64,000 bases of DNA, taken from sequence record NC_010583.1. One strand, written 5' to 3'. Both the position numbers and the translations under genes were made by a program. The notes under the pieces were generated by a model, which saw only the letters and a list, made by a program, of their open reading frames with translations, did not search any database and was not told the origin of the DNA. Positions 30,609 to 38,794 of this stretch are shown piece after piece (within the stretch, counting starts at the first letter, position 1; the number at the start of each line of letters is the position of its first letter). This stretch comes from Escherichia phage Eps7.

Positions 30609-30774
30609 ATAAACCCGTTATTTCAACGGGATTTCTTTTTCAAATACAGGAGACTTATCAGACATTACTGTCATAGCCAACTGCTGTAGAAATTCGAATG
30701 AGAGTTTTAAACGTTCTTCGCCCAACTCAACCTCAACGCGCTTCATTCGTTTATCTACCTTTATCTTTAGATTA

Positions 30775-30996
30775 TCAGCCATCTTCGGGTTCTCTTTGCT
30801 CAGCTATTGCTAGCCAGTCTGGTAAAAGAAACTTAGTACGAAATTCTTCATATGTTTCTTCCGGATGAAAGCTATAGCCTTGCTTTTCATCATTTAATAA
30901 AACCGAACCGTCTTCCTGCTCATAAGCTCGGTATGTTTCACCAATAATTAAAACTCGCCTATTAGGGTTTTTATTACGAAACTCAAAAACGTCCAT
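30775..30996 (-). CDS. hypothetical protein
   Basis: 73-aa ORF. Confidence 0.5.
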   Translation of the reverse strand: MDVFEFRNKNPNRRVLIIGETYRAYEQEDGSVLLNDEKQGYSFHPEETYEEFRTKFLLPDWLAIAEQREPEDG

Positions 30997-31011
30997 AACG
31001 TTTCCTTAAAT

Positions 31012-31086
31012 TGGTGCGGGATACGAGAGTCGAACTCGTGTCTACTGGTTGGAAGCCAGTTATTCTAGCCACTGAACTAATCACGC
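31012..31086 (-). tRNA. tRNA-Gly (TCC)
   Basis: manual fold: anticodon stem ACTGG/CCAGT, loop CTTCCAA, T-loop TTCGACT, CCA. Confidence 0.65.
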
Positions 31087-31092
31087 ATAAAT

Positions 31093-31168
31093 TGGCTGGA
31101 GAAGGAGGAATCGAACCTACCATTAACGGAGTCAAAGGCCGTTGTGCTAACCGTTACACTACTCTCCA
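31093..31168 (-). tRNA. tRNA-Gln (TTG)
   Basis: manual fold: U1-A72, discriminator G, anticodon loop CTTTGAC, T-loop TTCGATT, CCA. Confidence 0.6.
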
Positions 31169-31174
31169 AGTATT

Positions 31175-31250
31175 TGGCTGGGATGCCACGGATCGAACGT
31201 GGAACCTTCGGAGTCAGAGGCCGACGATCTGCCAATTGATCTACATCCCA
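31175..31250 (-). tRNA. tRNA-Gln (CTG)
   Basis: manual fold: U1-A72, discriminator G, anticodon loop CTCTGAC, D-stem GATC, CCA. Confidence 0.6.
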
Positions 31251-31258
31251 ATAATTTT

Positions 31259-31459
31259 TTATTCTTCAGGAACCGTGGCTATTGGATCTGGTTCTTCTAG
31301 ACGTTTACCATTATGATCGACACGAATAATGCCACAACCTTCACAGATTACAACAGCACCATAGCCTTCTTTAACTTCGGCTTCTGTAATCAGACCAGAT
31401 AAATCACCAGTATCTTTGCCCCACATATCAATAGAGCATTCTTTGCAGAAATCAGCCAT
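31259..31459 (-). CDS. zinc-ribbon-like small protein
   Basis: 66-aa ORF with CxxC...CxxC. Confidence 0.5.
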   Translation of the reverse strand: MADFCKECSIDMWGKDTGDLSGLITEAEVKEGYGAVVICEGCGIIRVDHNGKRLEEPDPIATVPEE

Positions 31460-31483
31460 ATTTTATTTCCTATTTAAGTTAAT

Positions 31484-31558
31484 TGGTGCATCCTCAGGGA
31501 ATCGAACCCCGATCGTAAAGTTCGTAGCTTTACATTCTTTCCGTTGAAATAAGGACGC
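31484..31558 (-). tRNA. tRNA-Arg (ACG)
   Basis: manual fold: anticodon stem TAAAG/CTTTA, loop CTACGAA, T-loop TTCGATT, CCA. Confidence 0.6.
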
Positions 31559-31564
31559 AATATT

Positions 31565-31641
31565 TGGGGTGGCTAGTGGAATTCGAATCCACATAGGCCT
31601 GATTCACAATCAGGATCATTAACCAATTATGATATAGCCAC
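31565..31641 (-). tRNA. tRNA-His (GTG)
   Basis: manual fold: anticodon stem CCTGA/TCAGG, loop TTGTGAA, T-loop TTCGAAT, CCA. Confidence 0.7.
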
Positions 31642-31960
31642 AATTGAAATCTCTAGTTATCCCTTTCGGAGGGGCTAAAGGGCGATACCCATTCTAAAGA
31701 CTTCAATTGTGGCGGCTCTCCGAAACTCATCACACTAACAACTAGTTGATTACTTCTGGATTCTCGCCCAGAAAATTCTCTAGAAAGGTGCACCGTTACT
31801 CTTTGAGCCATTAATGTATCAAGAAGCAGAAGGACTTGAACCTTCACGAGATAGACCATTTATCTCAGCCTCGTTTTCGGGTATCTTATGAGGAGTGGAT
31901 GTTCCCCTTACGCCCTTTAGGAAGCCCCGTCTACCGATTCCGGCATACTTCAAGAATTAT
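31642..31960 (-). other. unresolved tRNA-like / structured RNA region
   Basis: ORF-free; contains Leu-tRNA-like D-arm GGAATCGGTAGAC and a T-arm GAAGGTTCAAGTCCTTC without clean acceptor pairing or CCA. Confidence 0.3.
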
Positions 31961-32164
31961 TTAAAACTTGTAACCTTCGGGAACCTTATCCTTAACACCA
32001 ATATACTCAGCTTGGATGTAATAATCAGGTACATGATCTTTTGGCAGATTCTTGTTAGTATCATGAACCTCAGCTCTAGCTTCTTCTTCAGAATCAAAAC
32101 CACGATACCAGATTTCACCACCCCAGCCACGTTCACTTTCGGTATACTTAACAATGTGTTTCAT
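31961..32164 (-). CDS. hypothetical protein
   Basis: track ORF 31961..32215 trimmed to internal Met so it does not overlap tRNA. Confidence 0.4.
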   Translation of the reverse strand: MKHIVKYTESERGWGGEIWYRGFDSEEEARAEVHDTNKNLPKDHVPDYYIQAEYIGVKDKVPEGYKF

Positions 32165-32182
32165 AAGGTTTTCCTTATTAGT

Positions 32183-32272
32183 TGGAGGAAGGTAATGGAG
32201 TCGAACCATCACCATATCGCTACAGCGGGCAGGTTTTCAAGACCTGTTACATACCACTATGTCCTACCTTCC
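32183..32272 (-). tRNA. tRNA-Ser (TGA), long variable arm
   Basis: manual fold: acceptor GGAAGGT/ACCTTCC, anticodon stem CAGGT/ACCTG, loop CTTGAAA, CCA; 90 nt. Confidence 0.65.
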
Positions 32273-32279
32273 AGTTGTT

Positions 32280-32370
32280 TGGCGGAAGAAGAGAGATTCG
32301 AACTCTCAAGCCGTTTTACCAGTCAGCCACTTTCCAAGCGGTTTTCGTCACCTAATCGATTTGCTCTTCC
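32280..32370 (-). tRNA. tRNA, long-variable-arm class (anticodon unresolved, possibly Ser-GGA)
   Basis: perfect T-arm GAGAGTTCGAATCTCTC, acceptor GGAAGAG/TTCTTCC, CCA; 91 nt. Confidence 0.5.
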
Positions 32371-32544
32371 GTAGATCTCAGGATTAAATCATAAACTTCA
32401 TTAGCGGATACTGGAAGTATGAGATTATACATCTTTTGGTCATACCTCTGACCATACTCTATAAACACATACTCTTTAGTTAATGTATTAACAGCTAACC
32501 AGATATCAGTTATAGGAGTTTTCATCATGAGTTAATCCAATGTT

Positions 32545-32625
32545 TGGTAGGGATGGAGGGACTCGAACCCACACCCGAAGACTAGAATCTAAATCTAGCG
32601 CGTCTGCCAATTTCGCCACATCCCC
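32545..32625 (-). tRNA. tRNA-Leu (TAG)
   Basis: manual fold: anticodon stem CTAGA/TCTAG, loop TTTAGAT, extended variable region, CCA. Confidence 0.6.
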
Positions 32626-32632
32626 ATTTTAT

Positions 32633-32851
32633 TTAGTTAGAAATAAATAATAATCCCGCAACAATGGAACCTACGCCACTGAACACCATTATCAGCATAG
32701 CTTCTAAGCTGATAAAGCGGACAGTATATGGAGCGCCCCAAGAATAATCAGTAAAGAAAGTTTTCTTTTCTTTAGCTAAATCTTTAACAGTTCTAAAATA
32801 GATAGCTAGTGCTAAAGCTGCAAGAACTATAGAGGCTGCTAAGAATACCAT
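32633..32851 (-). CDS. small membrane protein
   Basis: 72-aa ORF with two hydrophobic segments. Confidence 0.45.
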   Translation of the reverse strand: MVFLAASIVLAALALAIYFRTVKDLAKEKKTFFTDYSWGAPYTVRFISLEAMLIMVFSGVGSIVAGLLFISN

Positions 32852-32870
32852 ATTATTTCCTTAATTTGTT

Positions 32871-32946
32871 TGGTGGAGTCACTCAGAATTGAACTGAGTT
32901 CCACTGCTTGCAAGGCAGTAAGTTTAACCAAATAACCTATGACCCC
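32871..32946 (-). tRNA. tRNA-Ala (TGC)
   Basis: manual fold: G3-U70 pair, anticodon stem ACTGC/GCAGT, loop CTTGCAA, CCA. Confidence 0.6.
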
Positions 32947-32952
32947 GAATTT

Positions 32953-33031
32953 TGGTGGAGAATAACGGAATCGAACCGTTCTGATGTCCTCGGTGCAAGC
33001 GAGGTGTCCACTCCATGCAGACCCATTCCCC
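32953..33031 (-). tRNA. tRNA with anticodon TGC (second Ala-like copy)
   Basis: manual fold: G3-U70, anticodon stem CCTCG/CGAGG, loop CTTGCAC, T-arm AACGGTTCGATTCCGTT, CCA. Confidence 0.5.
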
Positions 33032-33040
33032 AAAATTTAT

Positions 33041-33304
33041 TTATTCTCTATACATATCGAGAACAGTTGCTACAATCTGAGCTTCTAGCCTAGCAATATC
33101 TTTATTCACTATATCAGATTCTACTACTAAGTGATTATATATTGCTTCAGTTTTAGCAAGATCTACATCAGATAGTTTATTAAGACTATTATAATACTTA
33201 GCATTATTGCAACGTTTCTTCATATCGGAAACTCGTTTATGGAGTGTTCTTTGTTGATAACGTTGTGACATTAGTTTCTTAGCCATATCTTTCAGATCAA
33301 ACAT
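33041..33304 (-). CDS. hypothetical protein
   Basis: 87-aa ORF with AGGAAT RBS. Confidence 0.5.
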   Translation of the reverse strand: MFDLKDMAKKLMSQRYQQRTLHKRVSDMKKRCNNAKYYNSLNKLSDVDLAKTEAIYNHLVVESDIVNKDIARLEAQIVATVLDMYRE

Positions 33305-33548
33305 GGATATTCCTTCTAGTTTACTAAGGCTATTAGCTCGGTGTGCGTATTACCCTCAGACATTAGCCAGTAGAGGATAATCGCTCTTCACAAACCCGAT
33401 ACACTATTCAGTTGCCGCTGAATCTAGCGGACTAATCTAGAACTTCTCCCGAGTCGTAGGGATCGTGCTTTTTTGGCAGCCAGTCCTAGGTCGAGCTAAT
33501 ACCTTAGTGAACTTTGATGAGGATTTCTCCTCATCAATTTATATAAAT
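33305..33548 (-). ncRNA. candidate structured leader / small RNA
   Basis: 245-nt ORF-poor transcribed segment between promoter and next start codon; long-range complement TAAGGTATTAGCTCG vs CGAGCTAATAGCCTTA; local hairpins. Confidence 0.3.
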
Positions 33549-33577
33549 ATTATAACAAGAAATTAAGCATCAAGCAA
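33549..33577 (-). promoter_or_regulatory. sigma70-type early promoter
   Basis: ATTATA 33549-33554, AAGCAA 33572-33577, 17-bp spacer. Confidence 0.6.
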
Positions 33578-33929
33578 GTACATTTTTAGCGATTTCTTGT
33601 AGTTCCTTAACGTCGCTAACGAAAAGGTAATCAGAGCTTCCAGAGTGCATACTCTGCATAACCACACCACCATCCGGTGCATCTTCTTTCAGTGTGATAC
33701 CTAACCAGAACTCGGCAAAACTAGGTGTTACCTCACCTTGACTTGCCTTGAACACATCGCCTTCTGTGATCTCTTGACCAGTGGAGAGTCCCATGTATGG
33801 TACGTTCAGATCAATATCTTTGTAGAACTCAGCTAGATCTTGCTCGAAATCCCAACCTTTAGAGATAGCGAACTCCATTGTTACATGACCGAAATAGCCT
33901 TGAACCTTGCTTGATAATTGCATTTGCAA
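33570..33929 (-). CDS. hypothetical protein
   Basis: 119-aa ORF. Confidence 0.5.
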   Translation of the reverse strand: MQMQLSSKVQGYFGHVTMEFAISKGWDFEQDLAEFYKDIDLNVPYMGLSTGQEITEGDVFKASQGEVTPSFAEFWLGITLKEDAPDGGVVMQSMHSGSSDYLFVSDVKELQEIAKNVLA

Positions 33930-33948
33930 TTCCTTATTTTGAGTTAAT

Positions 33949-34022
33949 TGGTACTCGGTGATAGAATCGAACTATCGCAACCGCCGTGTAAAGACGGGGT
34001 TCTCCCATTAAACTAACCGAGC
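33949..34022 (-). tRNA. tRNA-Val (TAC)
   Basis: manual fold: T-arm GATAGTTCGATTCTATC, anticodon stem CCGTC/GGCGG, loop TTTACAC, CCA. Confidence 0.6.
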
Positions 34023-34026
34023 AATT

Positions 34027-34104
34027 TGGTGGATTGCCTGGGATTCGAACCCAGAACTGACGGATTAAAGGTCCGCTACTCTTATCCAGTTGAGCTAGCA
34101 ATCC
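34027..34104 (-). tRNA. tRNA-Lys (TTT)
   Basis: manual fold: anticodon stem GCGGA/TCCGT, loop CCTTTAA, T-arm CTGGGTTCGAATCCCAG, CCA. Confidence 0.6.
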
Positions 34105-34490
34105 AATTTTTCTACTAATAATTTAAAAGCATCTAGTACAGGTACTTCAAACCATTCTCCAGATACTCTATAATCTTTAAGAAGATTATGTAATTCTTTC
34201 TCTGTACGTCTTTTATCCGACGAAAATCTGAAATGGTATAGCTTGTAGTCTCTATTAGGTGAATAAGTTTGATAACTTGTTAACCTCTCATTCACATCTA
34301 TAGTCATACCTATTTTATACATGCCTGGCCATGCTGGATTACCAATTACATATACAAAACCTTCCGTTATAGGTATTTTATGCTCCCTTTTATACTTTAA
34401 GAGATTTAAGGCTGCCATTCGATAACAGAATCTAAACTCTGAAGTTTTTAACTTACCTTCTTTACCTGAAATTTCGTTATATTTGCTCAT
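34095..34490 (-). CDS. T5orf172-type (GIY-YIG-like) domain protein
   Basis: 131-aa ORF with YVIGNPAWPGMYKIGMT...RL...Y pattern; 3' end overlaps tRNA by ~10 nt. Confidence 0.5.
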   Translation of the reverse strand: MSKYNEISGKEGKLKTSEFRFCYRMAALNLLKYKREHKIPITEGFVYVIGNPAWPGMYKIGMTIDVNERLTSYQTYSPNRDYKLYHFRFSSDKRRTEKELHNLLKDYRVSGEWFEVPVLDAFKLLVEKLDC

Positions 34491-34744
34491 ATAAGCTCTT
34501 ATGAGCTTATCATCTATAATGAAGTTATCAGGAAGGTTTAAGGCAGCTAAAAACTTTATTAATTAGCATAGACTTCCTTAATAGAATAAACTTTTAAGTT
34601 AAGGTGATTAATACCAAATTCCGCCATCACTTCGTTTTCATCTTTACCGTAATGGGCTAGTGGATACTTCTTACGATCTTTGCTAGAACGTAGATCACTT
34701 ACTTTTAAACGAAATAATTTCATTTCGAAATCCTTCTATTAAAT

Positions 34745-34822
34745 TGGAAGCGGGTGCAGGAATCGAACCTACCTCTTTCTAGCTTATGAGACTAGCGATC
34801 TCTACCAGAGATCTAACCCGCA
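34745..34822 (-). tRNA. tRNA-Met (CAT), possibly initiator type
   Basis: manual fold: unpaired 1-72, anticodon loop CTCATAA, T-loop TTCGATT, CCA. Confidence 0.55.
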
Positions 34823-34828
34823 ATTGTT

Positions 34829-34907
34829 TGGTCTCCGTGGGAGGATTTGAACCCCCCGACCCTATCGCCCCAAACGAAACGCTCTGGCCAAACTGAGCTA
34901 CACGGAG
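34829..34907 (-). tRNA. tRNA-Pro (TGG)
   Basis: manual fold: acceptor CTCCGTG/CACGGAG, anticodon loop TTTGGGG, T-loop TTCAAAT, CCA. Confidence 0.55.
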
Positions 34908-34938
34908 AATATTCTTTGTTAACTCACTTTATAAATAT

Positions 34939-34967
34939 ATTATACAGAGAATTAAGCTAAATAGCAA
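34939..34967 (-). promoter_or_regulatory. sigma70-type early promoter upstream of tRNA pair
   Basis: ATTATA 34939-34944, TAGCAA 34962-34967, 17-bp spacer. Confidence 0.6.
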
Positions 34968-35212
34968 CTACATTTTTAATAAATTTACTTATTAGGTAAG
35001 TCACCGAGCTATCAACTCATGCTAGCGAAAGTTTGCGAGACCTTCTTTAAGTACTAGAACACACCCGCCGATGTGTCGGACTTACTTAATAAGTAAACTT
35101 TCGTTTACTTACACCTACCTGGTCGGGAGGATTTTCAGCGACTAGAACCGGCCGGAAACTCATCGCCTTGTTTATCTAGGAGTCCGTTCTCTAGGAAGCA
35201 GAAACCTAAATT

Positions 35213-35287
35213 TGGTGCGGTCGGAGGGAATCGAACCCTCAACTTCTGGTTGGCAACCAAAAAATTATACCTTTTAACTACGAACGC
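35213..35287 (-). tRNA. tRNA-Gly (GCC)
   Basis: manual fold: T-arm GAGGGTTCGATTCCCTC, anticodon stem TTTGG/CCAGA, loop TTGCCAA, CCA. Confidence 0.6.
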
Positions 35288-35302
35288 ATAATAAGTCAAT
35301 CT

Positions 35303-35440
35303 AGGCAGGACTTGAACCTGCTATCACTTGTGCGGATTTACGAGAACCATTCTTTCACTCGAATCGAACGAGCTTCTACCCTCGGCAAGCTGGTGTCCCC
35401 TCTCCACCACGCTAGAATGATAATTAATGCCTGCTCCTTT
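35303..35440 (-). other. unresolved tRNA-like region (two T-arm-like motifs, no encoded CCA)
   Basis: GCAGGTTCAAGTCCTGC and GCTCGTTCGATTCGAGT motifs; acceptor stems could not be paired by hand. Confidence 0.3.
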
Positions 35441-35500
35441 GAATCAAGAAGTCCACCCCGGACTTTGGGTCTTTGCAGTACATCACGCTGCTCTGATGTT

Positions 35501-35576
35501 TGGTACACCCACTAGGACTTGAACCTAGAACCCTCCGCTTAAGAGGCGGTAGCTCTAACCATTGAGCTATGGATGT
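35501..35576 (-). tRNA. tRNA-Lys (CTT)
   Basis: manual fold: T-arm CTAGGTTCAAGTCCTAG, anticodon loop CTCTTAA, CCA. Confidence 0.55.
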
Positions 35577-35652
35577 ATTATTATGTTTTGCAGTGCTCTA
35601 AATATAGACACTTCCCACGCGGTGGTTATCTATACCAGCGTCCTGCAAAAAT

Positions 35653-35729
35653 TGGCGCGACCGATGGGATTCGAACCCACATTTTCTCCCGTGACAGGGG
35701 AGTACCATTACCAAGCCAGCCCCGATCGC
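35653..35729 (-). tRNA. tRNA-Asp (GTC)
   Basis: manual fold: anticodon stem CTCCC/GGGAG, loop CTGTCAC, T-loop TTCGAAT, discriminator G, CCA. Confidence 0.65.
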
Positions 35730-36025
35730 ATAATTTATTTACTCAGTTTTGAGTTTTTCGATAGCTTCCTCAACCTCTTTTAGAGCTTCACGACGGGCAT
35801 TCTGTTGCTGCATATCTTGAATTAATGTCAGTTTTTGTTTTTAATTTCTTGATCCCAAACCTTAATATTATTAATCAGACTATCACGATCAGCTTCTAGT
35901 CGAGCAATTGCACGAGTTGTCATATCTATTTCCTCAGTTATTAATGAAAATGGTATCTGTGACTGAATTCAATATCAGTAATGATAGCTGGTTGGCTACC
36001 GGTTTACTTAACTCTACACAGAATA

Positions 36026-36108
36026 TGGCGGGCCGTGTAGGATTCGAACCTACGTTGTCTTTCGACATGGATTAACAGTCCACCGCCAAACCGCTTGGCT
36101 AACGACCC
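36026..36108 (-). tRNA. tRNA-Asn (GTT) with enlarged variable region
   Basis: manual fold: anticodon arm GTGGACTGTTAATCCAT, T-arm GTAGGTTCGAATCCTAC, CCA; 83 nt. Confidence 0.55.
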
Positions 36109-36115
36109 TAAAATT

Positions 36116-36191
36116 TGGACGACCGCATGAGATTCGAACTCACATAAGGAGGTTTTGCAGGCCTCCGCCTAAGCCATTCAGCCAACGGTCG
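36116..36191 (-). tRNA. tRNA-Cys (GCA)
   Basis: manual fold: anticodon loop CTGCAAA, discriminator U, T-loop TTCGAAT, CCA. Confidence 0.55.
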
Positions 36192-36369
36192 AGTTATCTT
36201 GCTTTTCGAGATTAGTAAACTCTAGATCTTTAGAATGTCCTATAGATCTAGCATAATAGCCATCTCCAGCATCATAGCCTGACTTACCACACTCACACAT
36301 CTTAAACTCTCTATAACGAGTGAAAATATGTTCAGAACCACAACACTTAAATTTAACTAACATTTTCAT
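36178..36369 (-). CDS. zinc-ribbon-like small protein
   Basis: 63-aa ORF with CC...CxC; 3' end overlaps tRNA by ~14 nt so stop may be misplaced. Confidence 0.4.
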   Translation of the reverse strand: MKMLVKFKCCGSEHIFTRYREFKMCECGKSGYDAGDGYYARSIGHSKDLEFTNLEKQDNSTVG

Positions 36370-36590
36370 TTAACACGCTCCGGTAAATCTTCGAGTTTAT
36401 ATTGAGTAGCCACATTAGCAGCATCTAGTAACAAACCCATATGTTTAAGAATCCTAGTGATAGCTTCGCCTTCTGCTTCTTCTACAAAAGTGCGTAGTTG
36501 AATGAAGTCAATACCACCATCCATACCAGAGAAAATGTTAAGTAAGCGAAGCATTACCAGCTTACGTTCTTTTAATTCTTGTTCTGCCAT
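36366..36590 (-). CDS. hypothetical protein
   Basis: track ORF 36366..36608 trimmed to Met 30 nt downstream of promoter -10. Confidence 0.5.
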   Translation of the reverse strand: MAEQELKERKLVMLRLLNIFSGMDGGIDFIQLRTFVEEAEGEAITRILKHMGLLLDAANVATQYKLEDLPERVK

Positions 36591-36619
36591 GTTGCTTCTC
36601 CAGTTCAATTTATGTAATA

Positions 36620-36648
36620 ATTATACAGAACTTTAAGGATTTAAGCAA
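36620..36648 (-). promoter_or_regulatory. sigma70-type early promoter
   Basis: ATTATA 36620-36625, AAGCAA 36643-36648, 17-bp spacer. Confidence 0.6.
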
Positions 36649-36928
36649 CTACATTTTTCAGAAATTTGATGCCTTTCTTTTTCTTCTTATACTTCCACGT
36701 TAATGGATTCTGTCGATTATGAACGCTTGAGATCTTTGTCTCGTCAAATTTCTTCAATACCATGTAATCACACGCCAACTGCTCTAGTGGAATGGTTTCT
36801 CCATCAAAAGCATAAACATAAGGCTGTTGACTAGCACGATAATGATAGACTTTGTTAACTCTACGTTTCAGCGACTTATCCGCGCAGTAAATAAAGAAGT
36901 TTTCAGGATGCATCAGCATCTCCTTCAA
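36641..36928 (-). CDS. hypothetical protein
   Basis: 95-aa ORF directly downstream of tRNA. Confidence 0.45.
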   Translation of the reverse strand: MKEMLMHPENFFIYCADKSLKRRVNKVYHYRASQQPYVYAFDGETIPLEQLACDYMVLKKFDETKISSVHNRQNPLTWKYKKKKKGIKFLKNVVA

Positions 36929-36930
36929 AT

Positions 36931-37005
36931 TGGTGCAACCTGTACGTAACGATCGTACCTCTTCTCCTTTTCAGGGAGACGCTAATCCATCTCAGCTAAA
37001 GTCGC
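36931..37005 (-). tRNA. tRNA-Phe (GAA)
   Basis: manual fold: anticodon stem TCTCC/GGAGA, loop CTGAAAA, CCA; atypical T-loop. Confidence 0.5.
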
Positions 37006-37011
37006 AAATAT

Positions 37012-37088
37012 TGGCAAACCTACTAGGACTCGAACCTAGACCGTACGGTTTTGGAGACCGACATGCTGTCCAGTAACACTCTAGGAAT
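37012..37088 (-). tRNA. tRNA-like, anticodon probably CCA (Trp); acceptor stem imperfect
   Basis: T-arm CTAGGTTCGAGTCCTAG, anticodon arm CGGTCTCCAAAACCG, CCA end; 5' acceptor pairs poorly. Confidence 0.4.
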
Positions 37089-37096
37089 GCAGAAAT

Positions 37097-37173
37097 TGGC
37101 GTCCTGTGCGGGGATCGAACCCGCAAATCCTACCTTGAAAGGGTAGTGACTTTACCAGTTTGTCTAACAGGAC
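37097..37173 (-). tRNA. tRNA-Glu (TTC)
   Basis: manual fold: acceptor GTCCTGT/ACAGGAC, anticodon stem CTACC/GGTAG, loop CTTTCAA, CCA. Confidence 0.7.
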
Positions 37174-37180
37174 TTAAATT

Positions 37181-37271
37181 TGGTGTTGGATGATGGAGTC
37201 GAACCACCCGAGACCCTTCCGAGTCGGCAGATTTACAGTCTGCTTCGCTACCTCTACGATACTAATCCAAC
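37181..37271 (-). tRNA. tRNA-Tyr (GTA), long variable arm
   Basis: manual fold: anticodon stem GCAGA/TCTGC, loop CTGTAAA, 91 nt, CCA. Confidence 0.65.
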
Positions 37272-37396
37272 ATATTTGAATGAAAAATAAGTCGGTTAAA
37301 CTCAAGGTGGAATATTTCAGGAAATCCTGACTTTACCCCTAAAAGCAACTCGCTTAGTTACTTCTCATTCAGATATGTTTTCCAAATTAGATAACT

Positions 37397-37426
37397 ATTA
37401 TATCAAGTTTTGAAGGACTGAGCAAG
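37397..37426 (-). promoter_or_regulatory. sigma70-type promoter overlapping a hairpin
   Basis: ATTATA 37397-37402, AGCAAG 37421-37426; inverted repeat CTGAGCAAG...CTTGCTCAG 37418-37450. Confidence 0.45.
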
Positions 37427-37461
37427 TCAAATTTTAAAGAACTTGCTCAGTGCTATATCAG

Positions 37462-37737
37462 TTACTCGAAGCTAGGAGTGACACTCAGTTTGAATGGAAG
37501 CTCGAACACTTCTTCATAATCATCATTGAGCGTAATTACACGACCTTCTAGCTTAGTCATGGTGATTTCGATATCAGCCTCTGCATCAGGAGCCATACCA
37601 GCTTCCACACATTTAGCTTTGACTTCCGGCAGAAGTTCTACATCGTAGAAATAAAGCCATTCAATCTCACCTTCCCAGCCACCCCAGGATTTACAAACAG
37701 CACTTTCAACACCAGTTGCAGTAACACGTTTTGACAT
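37462..37737 (-). CDS. hypothetical acidic protein
   Basis: 91-aa ORF 31 nt downstream of promoter. Confidence 0.5.
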   Translation of the reverse strand: MSKRVTATGVESAVCKSWGGWEGEIEWLYFYDVELLPEVKAKCVEAGMAPDAEADIEITMTKLEGRVITLNDDYEEVFELPFKLSVTPSFE

Positions 37738-37767
37738 TCGTTAACTCCTTCATCAATTTATATAACT

Positions 37768-37797
37768 ATTATAGCAGAAATCTTAAGTAAAAAGCAA
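37768..37797 (-). promoter_or_regulatory. sigma70-type early promoter
   Basis: ATTATA 37768-37773, AAGCAA 37792-37797, 18-bp spacer. Confidence 0.6.
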
Positions 37798-37827
37798 GTA
37801 CATTTTTAAAATTTCTGCTTGGAGGAG

Positions 37828-38034
37828 TTAAACTCCTGATTCTTCAGCCAGATCAAGCCCAACCAACGTGATTGCCATAATAGCCGCGCCATGTTCTTTC
37901 TCTCCTAGCTCTTTGGCTTGAGTGAGAATATTTAGGAACTGCTTTTGAAAATCTGCAACTTCTTCTGTCATGCCTGCTTCAGCAATAATTCCTTTCAGCA
38001 TAAAGCGTTGTGCCGTAATTTCAGGATTAGCCAT
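37828..38034 (-). CDS. hypothetical protein
   Basis: 68-aa ORF. Confidence 0.45.
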   Translation of the reverse strand: MANPEITAQRFMLKGIIAEAGMTEEVADFQKQFLNILTQAKELGEKEHGAAIMAITLVGLDLAEESGV

Positions 38035-38185
38035 TTATTATCTCCAGTTATTTAGAATGTAAGCCAAACTTAGGATCATAGCGATCGTAAGTCGTACCAT
38101 TAGTTGAAGCCTTGATGCTATGAAAACGACAGTACATAAATTTACGTAGTGCTTTCTTAATAGCTTTCATTTTATTTCCTTAATT

Positions 38186-38262
38186 TGGTAGGGGTGGTGG
38201 GATTCGAACCCACAAAACCTGAATTTTAAGTCCAGTACCTATGCCAATTCGATTACACCCCC
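38186..38262 (-). tRNA. tRNA with anticodon TAA (Leu-type) but short variable arm
   Basis: manual fold: T-arm GTGGGTTCGAATCCCAC, anticodon stem CTGGA/TTCAG, loop CTTAAAA, CCA; D-arm irregular. Confidence 0.45.
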
Positions 38263-38270
38263 ATGTAATC

Positions 38271-38608
38271 TTAGCGAATCTCTAAACCCTGGAAATATCG
38301 AGGGAATGGAGAGCCAACTTCAAAATTGATGCCCCAATTAAGTTCAACGAGTTCAGATTTATTAAGATCTAGGCCATTACCTTCAAAGATATAGCCGTAA
38401 ACCGCAGGGAACATAGCTGCTAGATCTTCCATATCGGAATGAGCATTGTGTTCTTCACGGAACTGCTCAACTCTTCAATAGAACTTTTCTAGGAGACTCA
38501 GGTACGATGAACGTTACCACATCAGTAGAATCATCGGTACGATACACCGTAGCTTGGAACAAGCCAACACCTAAAAGGTTTATTGCCGGAGTAGTAAAAA
38601 TATCCATC
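38271..38608 (-). CDS. hypothetical protein, frame interrupted near 38470
   Basis: two adjacent protein-like frames (MDIFTTPAINLL... and ...EQFREEHNAHSDMEDL...) each below track threshold. Confidence 0.35.
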
Positions 38609-38794
38609 TTAGCCTCGCTCAATGTCTAGACAAATTGCATATTCAGGGTTGATACCAGTACCTTTACATGTAGGACATTCCCATTCTCTACAGAAAATAT
38701 CCCCAGGTTCTGCATCATCCTGCCTACCACTACCATGACAGTCCTTACACCGACATTCTTCTAATGCTTTCTTCATTTCATAGAATCTAGACAT
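38609..38794 (-). CDS. zinc-finger-like small protein
   Basis: 61-aa ORF with CxxC...CxxC. Confidence 0.5.
   Translation of the reverse strand: MSRFYEMKKALEECRCKDCHGSGRQDDAEPGDIFCREWECPTCKGTGINPEYAICLDIERG

What the first reader, a model, noticed from the sequence alone, without database searches (positions are those of the whole stretch)
34981..35210. Palindrome-rich non-coding stretch downstream of tRNA-Gly(GCC)
TTTACTTATTAGGTAAGT (34984-35001) and its near-perfect reverse complement (35080-35098) can form a long stem enclosing ~80 nt. Further local inverted repeats follow. No ORF is present. Candidate processing site, terminator or small RNA within the tRNA transcription unit.
Basis: seen in the sequence. 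Interest (0 to 1): 0.35.

Follow-up and report, generated by a model that had tools for sequence, protein, structure and literature searches.

The report
Phage T5 "RNA IV" stable-RNA gene
The palindrome is the processing stem of a small cloverleaf-shaped non-coding RNA already annotated in phage T5 as "RNA IV, function unknown"; it is real and conserved, but not a new kind of element.

Summary
The window comes from a T5-like phage (Demerecviridae) whose 29 tRNA genes all lie on the minus strand.

**Observation.** The inverted repeat is real: arms 34981-35002 and 35079-35100 match at 20 of 22 positions, against at most 17 of 22 in 200 shuffles.

**Identity.** It is not a bare hairpin or a terminator. 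Window 34981-35101 (minus strand) is the ortholog of T5 rnaIV (NC_005859, T5s05, "stable RNA with unknown functions"). It sits in the same place, just upstream of the P13a-type promoter that drives tRNA-Pro and tRNA-Met.

**Structure.** The RNA folds into a four-helix cloverleaf. Across 22 distinct sequences 99.5% of cells are paired, and 10 pairs show compensatory changes. Two loops are conserved: CUCGCAA (invariant) and GGCG (one GGUG variant). G·U pairs assign it to the minus strand. A model built only from T5-type sequences finds it as the single hit in the 64 kb window (58 bits).

**Processing.** The T5 mature ends map to 35087 and 34993, inside the 22-bp stem at a conserved mismatch. This suggests excision by an RNase III-type cut, which is inferred and not shown.

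**Rest of the finding.** 35102-35212 is a separate conserved spacer that arrived with tRNA-Gly(GCC). Its folding is unremarkable.

**Function.** It remains unknown. The RNA is dispensable and has no Rfam family.

The parts
34981..35101 (-). RNA IV gene with its precursor stem, the ortholog of T5 rnaIV (T5s05)
   Evidence: blastn to NC_005859 32825-32954: 76% identity over 122 nt, E 5e-12, lying under the features 'rnaIV | promoter'. Covariance model R1 scores 101 bits. Alone, the minus strand folds to -39.6 kcal/mol with z = -5.0 as a cloverleaf.
34993..35087 (-). Predicted mature ~95-nt RNA IV-like RNA, by transfer of the annotated T5 ends
   Evidence: Model R2 was built from T5-type bodies only, with no window sequence and no outer arms. 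It gives one hit in the 64 kb window, at exactly 34993-35087 (-), 58.1 bits, E 4e-14, full length. The T5 ends are alignment columns 15 and 117.
35088..35100 (-). 5' arm of the 13-bp outer (precursor) stem; pairs with 34981-34993
   Evidence: The arm is nearly invariant in 22 distinct sequences. The three changes seen are not compensated.
34981..34993 (-). 3' arm of the outer stem. Its distal AAATTT overlaps the A+T-rich upstream part of the next promoter.
   Evidence: The promoter repeat family reaches about 34986-34991.
35079..35085 (-). P1 5' strand (terminal helix of the mature RNA); pairs with 34996-35002
   Evidence: One compensatory pair. U·G pairs in T5-type sequences become U:A or C:G in other sequences.
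35058..35077 (-). P2 hairpin: 8 bp, with the GGCG loop at 35066-35069
   Evidence: Window ACACA/UGUGU against T5 AUAGA/UCUAU gives two compensatory pairs. Single-sided changes stay paired.
35022..35057 (-). P3 composite hairpin (5 bp, an asymmetric bulge, then 6-8 bp), with the invariant 7-nt loop CUCGCAA at 35033-35039
   Evidence: three compensatory pairs. The loop is identical in all 22 sequences.
35005..35019 (-). P4 hairpin (4 bp, variable 7-nt loop)
   Evidence: All four pairs show changes on both sides.
35089..35112 (-). Hairpin D, GUAAGUAAAC-GAAA-GUUUACUUAU. It uses the 5' arm of the outer stem and so competes with that stem.
   Evidence: I7; -9.9 kcal/mol. Relatives change it only to wobble pairs, and GAAA to GGAA, so it stays a GNRA loop. 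It is absent from T5.
35113..35212 (-). Conserved non-coding spacer that follows tRNA-Gly(GCC); not part of RNA IV
   Evidence: Present in 179 phage records and at least 99% identical in 108 of them. It is an insertion relative to T5 and phiR2-01. Three predicted hairpins, z = -0.3. No Rfam, tRNA or T5-RNA match.
35213..35287 (-). tRNA-Gly(GCC) with encoded CCA, immediately upstream in the same transcript
34939..34967 (-). T5-type sigma-70 promoter (TTGCTA, 17-nt spacer, TATAAT), homolog of T5 P13a; drives tRNA-Pro and tRNA-Met
   Evidence: Annotated as a promoter in AKFV33 and T5. Belongs to a repeat family found across the window.
35295..35419 (-). Homolog of T5 RNA2 ('tRNA-like stable RNA'), the upstream neighbour of RNA IV in T5
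   Evidence: blastn: 89.6% identity over 125 nt. T5 annotation.

Best explanation
The inverted repeat belongs to a gene for a small structured non-coding RNA, the ortholog of phage T5 RNA IV, read from the minus strand like the surrounding tRNAs.

**Transcription (inferred).** It is the last element of a polycistronic tRNA transcript that starts at a T5-type promoter near 36.6 kb. That transcript runs through tRNA-Cys, tRNA-Asn, RNA3, tRNA-Asp, tRNA-Lys, RNA2, tRNA-Gly(GCC) and the spacer.

**Fold (shown).** The body folds into a four-helix cloverleaf (P1-P4). Its 5' and 3' flanks pair for a further 13 bp. Together these give a ~22-bp coaxial stem with one conserved mismatch.

**Processing (inferred).** A host double-strand-specific cut, most likely by RNase III, is made at that mismatch, possibly followed by slight 3' trimming. 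This would release a ~95-nt RNA (35087->34993). Its paired ends and compact fold would make it as stable as a tRNA.

**Action (inferred).** It probably acts in trans through its two conserved loops, GGCG and CUCGCAA. The partner and the function are not known.

**What is shown:** homology, synteny, strand and conserved structure. **What is inferred:** transcription unit, processing enzyme, mature ends in this phage, and any activity.
For: **Homology and synteny**
- T5 RefSeq annotates rnaIV (T5s05, 103 nt, 'stable RNA with unknown functions') between RNA2 and promoter P13a. The window shows the same order.

**Independent detection**
- Model R2 was built without the window sequence and without the invariant arms. 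It finds 34993-35087 (-) as the only hit in 64 kb, at 58.1 bits and E 4e-14.

**Structure**
- RNAalifold recovers a cloverleaf.
- 99.5% of 1031 cells are paired, and 10 pairs carry changes on both sides. None of 500 shuffles reaches the observed value on any of the five measures. Slid controls give 39-54% paired and 0-2 such pairs.
- The element folded alone has z = -5.0.

**Strand**
- There are 181 G·U cells. The opposite strand would be only 82% paired.

**Selection**
- The window's RNA body is 67-72% identical to relatives whose flanks are 97-100% identical. All helices and both conserved loops are nevertheless kept.

**Processing**
- The T5 ends lie at alignment columns 15 and 117, next to the spot where exactly one of two adjacent pairs is non-canonical in all 22 sequences.
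- T5 RNAIII and RNA2H likewise have annotated ends inside longer precursor stems, with 3' overhangs of 2 nt and 3 nt (the latter counting one bulged G).
[quoted passage not shown] 48 of PMC4810235). I read only the title.
Against: - There are no expression data for this phage. Even for T5 I have only the GenBank annotation, not the primary papers.
- Most compensatory changes come from one divergent lineage, the window's own. The counted alignment was also fitted to the structure (caveat).
- The outer stem never covaries. The three changes seen in it (2 sequences at pair 6:125, 1 at pair 14:117) are uncompensated, so its pairing is supported only by complementarity.
- The T5 3' end gives a 1-nt overhang rather than 2 nt.
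- In the 241-nt precursor context, the minimum-energy fold uses hairpin D and a different long-range pairing (-70.8 kcal/mol) rather than outer stem plus cloverleaf (-66.4 kcal/mol).
- The RNA is dispensable. T5Mos (deletion 30661-38625) is viable (PMC11464382). Phage beppo lacks the whole block.
Confidence: 0.8

Rival explanations
1. The long stem is an intrinsic terminator, or a 3'-end-protecting structure, that closes the upstream tRNA transcription unit just before the strong P13a-type promoter. Under this reading the stable RNA is merely what remains.
For: - The element sits at the very end of a transcription unit, directly upstream of the next promoter, both here and in T5.
- The stem is flanked by AAA on the 5' side and UUUAUU on the 3' side.
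- No other minus-strand terminator is predicted in 34000-36200.
Against: - The stem is A+U-rich and closes a 76-nt multibranched body, unlike canonical terminators. The scan does not call it.
- The element is equally conserved in Enterobacter phage KKP_3711, where no promoter follows and tRNA-Thr lies downstream.
- Selection on internal helices and loops is not needed for termination.
Confidence: 0.12
2. RNA IV is a functionless by-product. It would be a decayed tRNA or a spacer that accumulates only because it folds tightly, with no activity of its own.
For: - It is dispensable in the laboratory (T5Mos deletion, PMC11464382) and lost in phage beppo.
- It has a cloverleaf shape and lies among tRNAs and 'tRNA-like' RNAs.
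- No function has been assigned in the T5 annotation.
Against: - Two loops are conserved across alleles that differ at about 30% of body positions, while the stems change by compensation. That pattern indicates purifying selection on the RNA.
- There is no tRNA signal: ARAGORN finds nothing and Rfam tRNA gives no hit at E <= 10.
Confidence: 0.2
3. The inverted repeat works at the DNA level, either instead of or in addition to the RNA role. It could be a recombination or homing-endonuclease boundary, or a cruciform, that lets the segment between the arms be exchanged as a cassette.
For: - The arms are nearly invariant without covariation, while the body between them exists in two discrete allele classes set in otherwise near-identical flanks.
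- The neighbourhood is mosaic. HNH and T5orf172 genes, and the tRNA-Gly module bounded by ACTTATTA repeats, all lie nearby.
Against: - There is only one copy per genome and no copy elsewhere.
- The annotated T5 RNA ends lie within the arms.
- The G·U pair at 4:127 would be an A·C mismatch in the other DNA strand.
- No nuclease site is known here.
Confidence: 0.1
4. The region encodes a small protein, as some GenBank records annotate ('hypothetical protein').
For: A few records place a hypothetical CDS under the match. A 25-aa ORF and a 54-aa ORF exist on the minus strand.
Against: - The 54-aa ORF starts at TTG inside tRNA-Gly and has no Pfam match.
- Relatives differ by indels of 2, 5 and 36 nt.
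- The substitution pattern is pair-preserving, not codon-like.
Confidence: 0.02

Closest known systems
Phage T5 RNA IV (gene rnaIV, locus T5s05, NC_005859 32838-32940)
   Same: - Same position: after RNA2 and before promoter P13a, tRNA-Pro and tRNA-fMet.
- Same strand and same cloverleaf fold.
- Same outer-stem arms and identical GGCG and CUCGCAA loops.
   Different: - The body is only ~70-76% identical and 8 nt shorter, with compensatory changes in every helix.
- A tRNA-Gly(GCC)+spacer module and hairpin D are inserted upstream.
- The stem mismatch is shifted by one pair.
Other T5 stable RNAs of unknown function (RNAIII, RNA2H, RNAI)
   Same: They are co-transcribed with tRNAs and their 5' and 3' ends are paired. 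RNAIII and RNA2H also have mature ends inside longer precursor stems.
   Different: No sequence or model similarity: R1 finds nothing else in the T5 loci or in the window. RNAI ends in GCCA like a tRNA, whereas RNA IV does not.
Phage T4 'species 1 / species 2' stable RNAs (rnaC, rnaD) in the T4 tRNA cluster (from my own knowledge; not tested here)
   Same: Small stable RNAs processed from a phage tRNA operon, with function still unknown and dispensable for growth.
   Different: They belong to an unrelated phage family. No homology was tested or is expected.
tRNA / tRNA-like RNAs
   Same: - Four-way junction.
- A 7-9-bp terminal helix joining the two ends.
- A 7-nt loop (C-U-NNN-A-A) shaped like an anticodon loop.
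   Different: - The arms have the wrong lengths: 8 bp with a tetraloop, and 5+8 bp.
- There are no conserved T-loop or D-loop residues and no 3' CCA.
- A linker separates P4 from P1.
- Neither ARAGORN nor Rfam finds a tRNA match.
RNase III processing stems (rRNA operon stems, T7 early-mRNA sites; from my own knowledge)
   Same: A duplex of about two helical turns (~22 bp) formed by sequences flanking a stable RNA, with an internal imperfection at the place where the mature ends lie.
   Different: Cleavage has not been demonstrated. The T5 annotation gives a 1-nt overhang rather than 2 nt.

Membership tests
T5 RNA IV (rnaIV) family | Sequence homology to T5 rnaIV | tested here: met
   blastn: 76.3% identity over 122 nt, E 5e-12, to NC_005859 32825-32954. 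blastn with the mature T5 RNA: 81% identity over 53 nt.
T5 RNA IV (rnaIV) family | Matches a structure-and-sequence model built from other members only | tested here: met
   R2 (20 T5-type bodies, RNAalifold structure, no window sequence, no outer arms) gives a single full-length hit at 34993-35087 (-), 58.1 bits, E 4e-14.
T5 RNA IV (rnaIV) family | Conserved genomic position and strand: minus strand, directly upstream of the P13a-type promoter and tRNA-Pro/tRNA-Met, downstream of RNA2 | tested here: met
   The only difference is the tRNA-Gly+spacer insertion between RNA2 and RNA IV.
T5 RNA IV (rnaIV) family | Accumulates as a discrete stable RNA in infected cells | not testable with these tools
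   Only the T5 GenBank annotation ('stable RNA') is available. I found no expression data for this phage (literature searches).
tRNA | Recognised by tRNA detectors (ARAGORN; Rfam RF00005) | tested here: not met
   No call at 34981-35101 among the 29 tRNAs found. No RF00005 hit there even at E <= 10.
tRNA | Canonical arm lengths, conserved T-loop, and a 3' CCA or discriminator | tested here: not met
   P2 is 8 bp with a tetraloop. P3 is 5+8 bp. The P4 loop is variable (UUGAUAG, UUGGUAG, CUUGAAC ...). The 3' end is ...CCUA here and ...CACA in T5.
Rho-independent terminator | Short G+C-rich hairpin with a small loop, immediately followed by a U-run | tested here: not met
   The consensus scan finds no minus-strand terminator in 34000-36200. 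The stem is A+U-rich and encloses 76 nt. Only UUUAUU follows.
RNase III substrate | About 20 bp or more of near-continuous duplex around the cleavage sites | tested here: met
   13 bp, then one pair plus one mismatch, then 7-9 bp, stacked coaxially.
RNase III substrate | Cleavage by RNase III leaving 2-nt 3' overhangs | not testable with these tools
   The annotated T5 ends give a 1-nt overhang for RNA IV, 2 nt for RNAIII, and 3 nt (including one bulged G) for RNA2H. There are no enzymatic data.
Any curated Rfam family | Score at or above a family's gathering threshold | tested here: not met
   Only tRNAs pass in the window. The sub-threshold hits near the region (S774, IRE_I) have E of 0.3-1.8 and look like chance.

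The most novel reading that the evidence does not exclude
RNA IV is an active trans-acting phage RNA. One version is a tRNA-shaped decoy or sponge that uses its invariant anticodon-like CUCGCAA loop to occupy a host tRNA-directed nuclease, modification enzyme or defence sensor.

The two sharply different body alleles, kept between invariant arms, would then reflect an arms race and cassette exchange. Several true tRNAs of the T5 cluster neutralise defence systems that cleave tRNAs: tRNA-Lys, -Thr and -Asn against PARIS, and tRNA-Tyr against the PtuAB toxin of retron Eco7 (PMC11464382, PMC12409363).
Probability: 0.12. Interest if true: 0.7.

Novelty: new member of a known kind. Interest (0 to 1): 0.3.

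Why it matters
RNA IV and its sister RNAs are annotated as stable RNAs in the T5 reference genome. They still have no function, no Rfam family, and no annotation in the several hundred related phage genomes I looked at.

This analysis adds four things:
- a covariation-supported cloverleaf model;
- the strand;
- a likely processing scheme;
- the observation that the RNA body exists as two very different, structure-preserving alleles between invariant arms.

That gives annotators a usable model and gives experimenters defined loops and stems to mutate. Since T5 tRNAs have been shown to counter tRNA-cleaving defence systems, the co-transcribed orphan RNAs are reasonable candidates for a similar role. 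None of this changes the verdict that the element is a known kind of thing.

Tried and rejected
- **Rfam.** The gathering-threshold scan of the whole window returned only tRNAs. The E <= 10 scan of 34700-35800 gave nothing credible over the element; the S774 and IRE_I hits are chance-level.
- **tRNA or tmRNA detection.** ARAGORN found none here.
- **Terminator scan.** No minus-strand site.
- **Coding potential.** Only tiny ORFs, one of them overlapping tRNA-Gly, with no Pfam match.
- **Multi-copy or MITE-like element.** Models R1 and R2 and blastn find one copy per genome. The 'second places' in other phage records are copies of the promoter, not of the element.
- **Paralogy with other T5 stable RNAs.** No R1 hits in the T5 loci that hold RNAI, RNAIII, RNA1, RNA2H, RNA2 and RNA3.
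- **Bacterial or wider homologs.**
  - A structured pattern found only T5-like isolates in IMG/VR.
  - It found one contig among 185,579 species genomes, which the model rejects. This is about the number expected by chance, by my estimate.
  - A first 14-mer scan returned mostly chance matches.
- **Spacer 35102-35212 as a T5 stable RNA or degenerate tRNA.** No similarity to any T5 RNA, and z = -0.3.
- **Literature.** Six full-text searches found no paper on RNA IV function or on T5 small-RNA transcriptomics. Reading four candidate papers likewise gave nothing on RNA IV itself; one search supplied only the McClain 1979 reference. A seventh search call failed with an error. The primary papers behind the T5 annotation are not in the library.

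Full report
**Context.** The window carries 29 tRNA genes, all on the minus strand. The 305-nt interval 34908-35212 matches 449 phage records, all T5-like Demerecviridae; the best matches are Salmonella phage SB13 and Escherichia phage PSa2 at 98.7%. On the minus strand the order is tRNA-Gly(GCC) 35287->35213, the region of the finding, then tRNA-Pro 34907->34829 and tRNA-Met.

**Check of the observation.** The repeat finder gives arms 34981-35002 and 35079-35100: 22 nt, 91% complementary, 76 nt apart. The best 22-nt inverted repeat scores 20/22, against 13-17/22 in 200 dinucleotide-preserving shuffles of the interval. No ORF longer than 54 aa overlaps the region. The 54-aa ORF starts at TTG inside tRNA-Gly and has no Pfam match.

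**What flanks it.** Positions 34924-34979 belong to a repeat family scattered over the window, always in the same orientation. On the minus strand they read TTGCTA, a 17-nt spacer, then TATAAT, at 34967-34939. The homologous sequences are annotated as promoters in AKFV33 and as promoter P13a in T5. The inverted repeat therefore lies at the end of one transcription unit, immediately upstream of the promoter of the next.

**Identity.**
- A search with 34980-35101 alone finds 404 phage records. In the T5 reference genome the match lies under 'rnaIV: RNAIV'.
- T5 annotates rnaIV (T5s05, 32838-32940, minus strand, 103 nt) as 'stable RNA with unknown functions'. It lies between RNA2 ('tRNA-like stable RNA') and promoter P13a, which is followed by T5.066, tRNA-Pro and tRNA-fMet.
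- The window also has homologs of T5 RNA2 (35419-35295), RNA3, RNA2H, RNA1 and the ends of RNAI, so the synteny is complete.
- The one difference is an insertion. Relative to T5 and phiR2-01, a module made of tRNA-Gly(GCC) plus ~110 nt sits between RNA2 and RNA IV.

**Structure.** I collected 22 distinct sequences, from the window, T5, AKFV33, BF23-like, Epseptimavirus, Klebsiella, Yersinia and Enterobacter phages. RNAalifold returns a four-helix cloverleaf closed by a long stem. Its parts, in window coordinates, are:
- outer stem 35088-35100 with 34981-34993;
- P1 35079-35085 with 34996-35002;
- P2 hairpin 35058-35077, loop GGCG;
- P3 composite hairpin 35022-35057, loop CUCGCAA;
- P4 hairpin 35005-35019.

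On a model-based alignment, 99.5% of 1031 cells are standard pairs. Ten pairs carry changes on both sides, and none of 500 shuffles reaches the observed value on any measure. Sliding the 3' partners by 1-3 columns drops pairing to 39-54%, with 0-2 such pairs. The caveats are that the alignment was fitted to the structure and that most double changes come from the window's own lineage.

As an independent test I built model R2 from 20 T5-type bodies only. It contains no window sequence and no outer arms, and its structure was derived by RNAalifold. It finds one hit in the whole window, 34993-35087 on the minus strand, full length, 58.1 bits, E 4e-14. Folded alone, the minus-strand element gives -39.6 kcal/mol with z = -5.0, and the minimum-energy fold is the same cloverleaf.

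**Strand.** The structure contains 181 G·U cells. Nine pairs have G·U or U·G as their commonest form. On the plus strand the same structure would be only 82% paired. The RNA is therefore read from the tRNA strand.

**Selection.** The CUCGCAA loop is invariant in all 22 sequences. The GGCG loop has one GGUG variant. Compared with Wa28, JNwz02 or chee158, the window is 97-100% identical on both sides but only 67-72% identical across 35000-35080, which is the RNA body. GenBank phages fall into two discrete classes: 30 records of the window type and 366 of the T5 type. A body that differs this much while keeping every helix and both conserved loops argues for a functional RNA. It also points to import of a diverged allele between the invariant arms.

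**Processing (inferred).** The T5 mature ends correspond to alignment columns 15 and 117, which are window positions 35087 and 34993. They lie inside the long stem, where exactly one of two adjacent pairs is non-canonical in all 22 sequences: A·C in T5-type sequences and in the window, A·G or A·A in the others.

The stem as a whole is about two helical turns long: 13 bp, then one pair plus one mismatch, then 7-9 bp. T5 RNAIII and RNA2H show the same design. Their annotated ends also sit inside longer precursor stems, with 3' overhangs of 2 nt and of 3 nt (the latter counting one bulged G). This is the geometry expected of RNase III. A review's reference list carries a 1979 paper whose title links RNase III to T4 tRNA synthesis (ref. 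48 of PMC4810235); I read only the title. The RNA IV overhang in T5 is 1 nt, not 2, and no enzymology is available, so I rate this step at about 0.5.

**The rest of the finding.**
- Positions 35102-35212 are not part of RNA IV. This spacer occurs in 179 records and is at least 99% identical in 108 of them.
- It has three predicted hairpins but is no more stable than shuffled sequence (z = -0.3). It matches no T5 RNA, tRNA or Rfam family.
- Its last hairpin (35089-35112, GNRA loop) is supported by wobble-only changes in relatives. It uses the 5' arm of the RNA IV outer stem, so the two structures compete.
- In the 241-nt context, the fold with this hairpin is 4.4 kcal/mol better than outer stem plus cloverleaf.
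- T5 lacks this hairpin. I do not know whether the competition means anything.

**Distribution and dispensability.** The models find one copy per genome and no paralog. A structured pattern finds only T5-like isolates in IMG/VR, plus one match among the bacterial and archaeal species genomes that the model rejects. T5Mos, with deletion 30661-38625, lacks rnaIV and grows (PMC11464382). Phage beppo lacks the whole block from tRNA-Pro to RNA2. RNA IV is therefore accessory.

**Comparison and verdict.**
- It is a member of the T5 RNA IV family: homology, an independent model match, position and strand are all met, and expression cannot be tested here.
- It is not a tRNA. The detectors, arm lengths, T-loop and CCA all fail.
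- It is not a canonical terminator.
- It belongs to no Rfam family.
- It resembles the orphan stable RNAs of the T4 and T5 tRNA clusters.

Function remains unknown. The most novel reading my evidence leaves open is a tRNA-shaped decoy directed at host tRNA-targeting factors, which I put at about 0.12. The finding is real and correctly flagged as a possible small RNA. It is an ortholog of something already annotated, so interest is modest.

Noticed in passing
window 35000-35080 against flanks 34880-34960 and 35120-35560: A sharp divergence island. The RNA IV body is only 67-72% identical to Wa28, JNwz02 and chee158, while both flanks are 97-100% identical. GenBank phages split into two discrete allele classes (30 records against 366). 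This suggests cassette-like replacement between the invariant stem arms.
   Followed up: partly
window 35213-35299 and 35087-35112: The tRNA-Gly(GCC)+spacer module is an insertion relative to T5 and phiR2-01. It is bounded by near-identical direct repeats, TAATAAGTCAA at 35289-35299 and TAATAAGTAAA at 35087-35097. Neighbouring modules share a CACCAAAT junction.
   Followed up: partly
window 35295-35419 (-): Homolog of T5 RNA2 ('tRNA-like stable RNA', 89.6% identity). It has a clear T-arm (GCAGGTTCAAGTCCTGC) and a paired acceptor-like end, but ARAGORN and Rfam do not call it. Only a tmRNA T-arm fragment hit appears, at E 1.8.
   Followed up: partly
window 31710-31954, 33388-33501, 35951-36023 (-): Unannotated homologs of T5 RNA1 (31954-31810), the ends of RNAI (31809-31710), RNA2H (33501-33388) and RNA3 (36023-35951).
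   Followed up: no
T5 loci L087 2785-2890 and L072 1484-1655: T5 RNAIII and RNA2H also have annotated ends inside longer precursor stems, with 3' overhangs of 2 nt and of 3 nt (counting one bulged G). This suggests a common RNase III-type maturation for several T5 stable RNAs.
   Followed up: partly
window 34095-34490 (-): A 131-aa ORF between tRNA-Lys(TTT) and tRNA-Met carries a T5orf172/MUG113 domain (E 2.6e-18). This is a likely mobile nuclease-type gene of the sort that makes this tRNA region mosaic.
   Followed up: partly
window 17335-59173, many sites (e.g. 33534, 36605, 37753, 41196, 45313): A family of ~55-nt T5-type promoter sequences. All but one of the longer blastn matches (59173-59111, reversed) have the same orientation, matching 34924-34979 on the minus strand. 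It accounts for the 'second place' hits in other phage records.
   Followed up: partly
window 35577-35652: The spacer between tRNA-Asp and tRNA-Lys(CTT) has an 8-nt inverted repeat (TTTTGCAG ... CTGCAAAA) enclosing ~50 nt. Only a chance-level miRNA-family hit covers it. In AKFV33 a small ORF occupies this position.
   Followed up: no
L074 (Salmonella phage Seabear), between tRNA-Gly and the spacer: An extra ~95-nt unannotated tRNA-like insert (GGAGAAG ... GCAGGTTCGACTCCTGT CTCTCCA CACCA) that is absent from the window.
   Followed up: no
L104 (Salmonella phage beppo) 1082-1322: tRNA-Met is followed directly by tRNA-Lys and tRNA-Asp. The whole block of tRNA-Pro, promoter, RNA IV, spacer, tRNA-Gly and RNA2 is missing, so it is a natural deletion.
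   Followed up: yes
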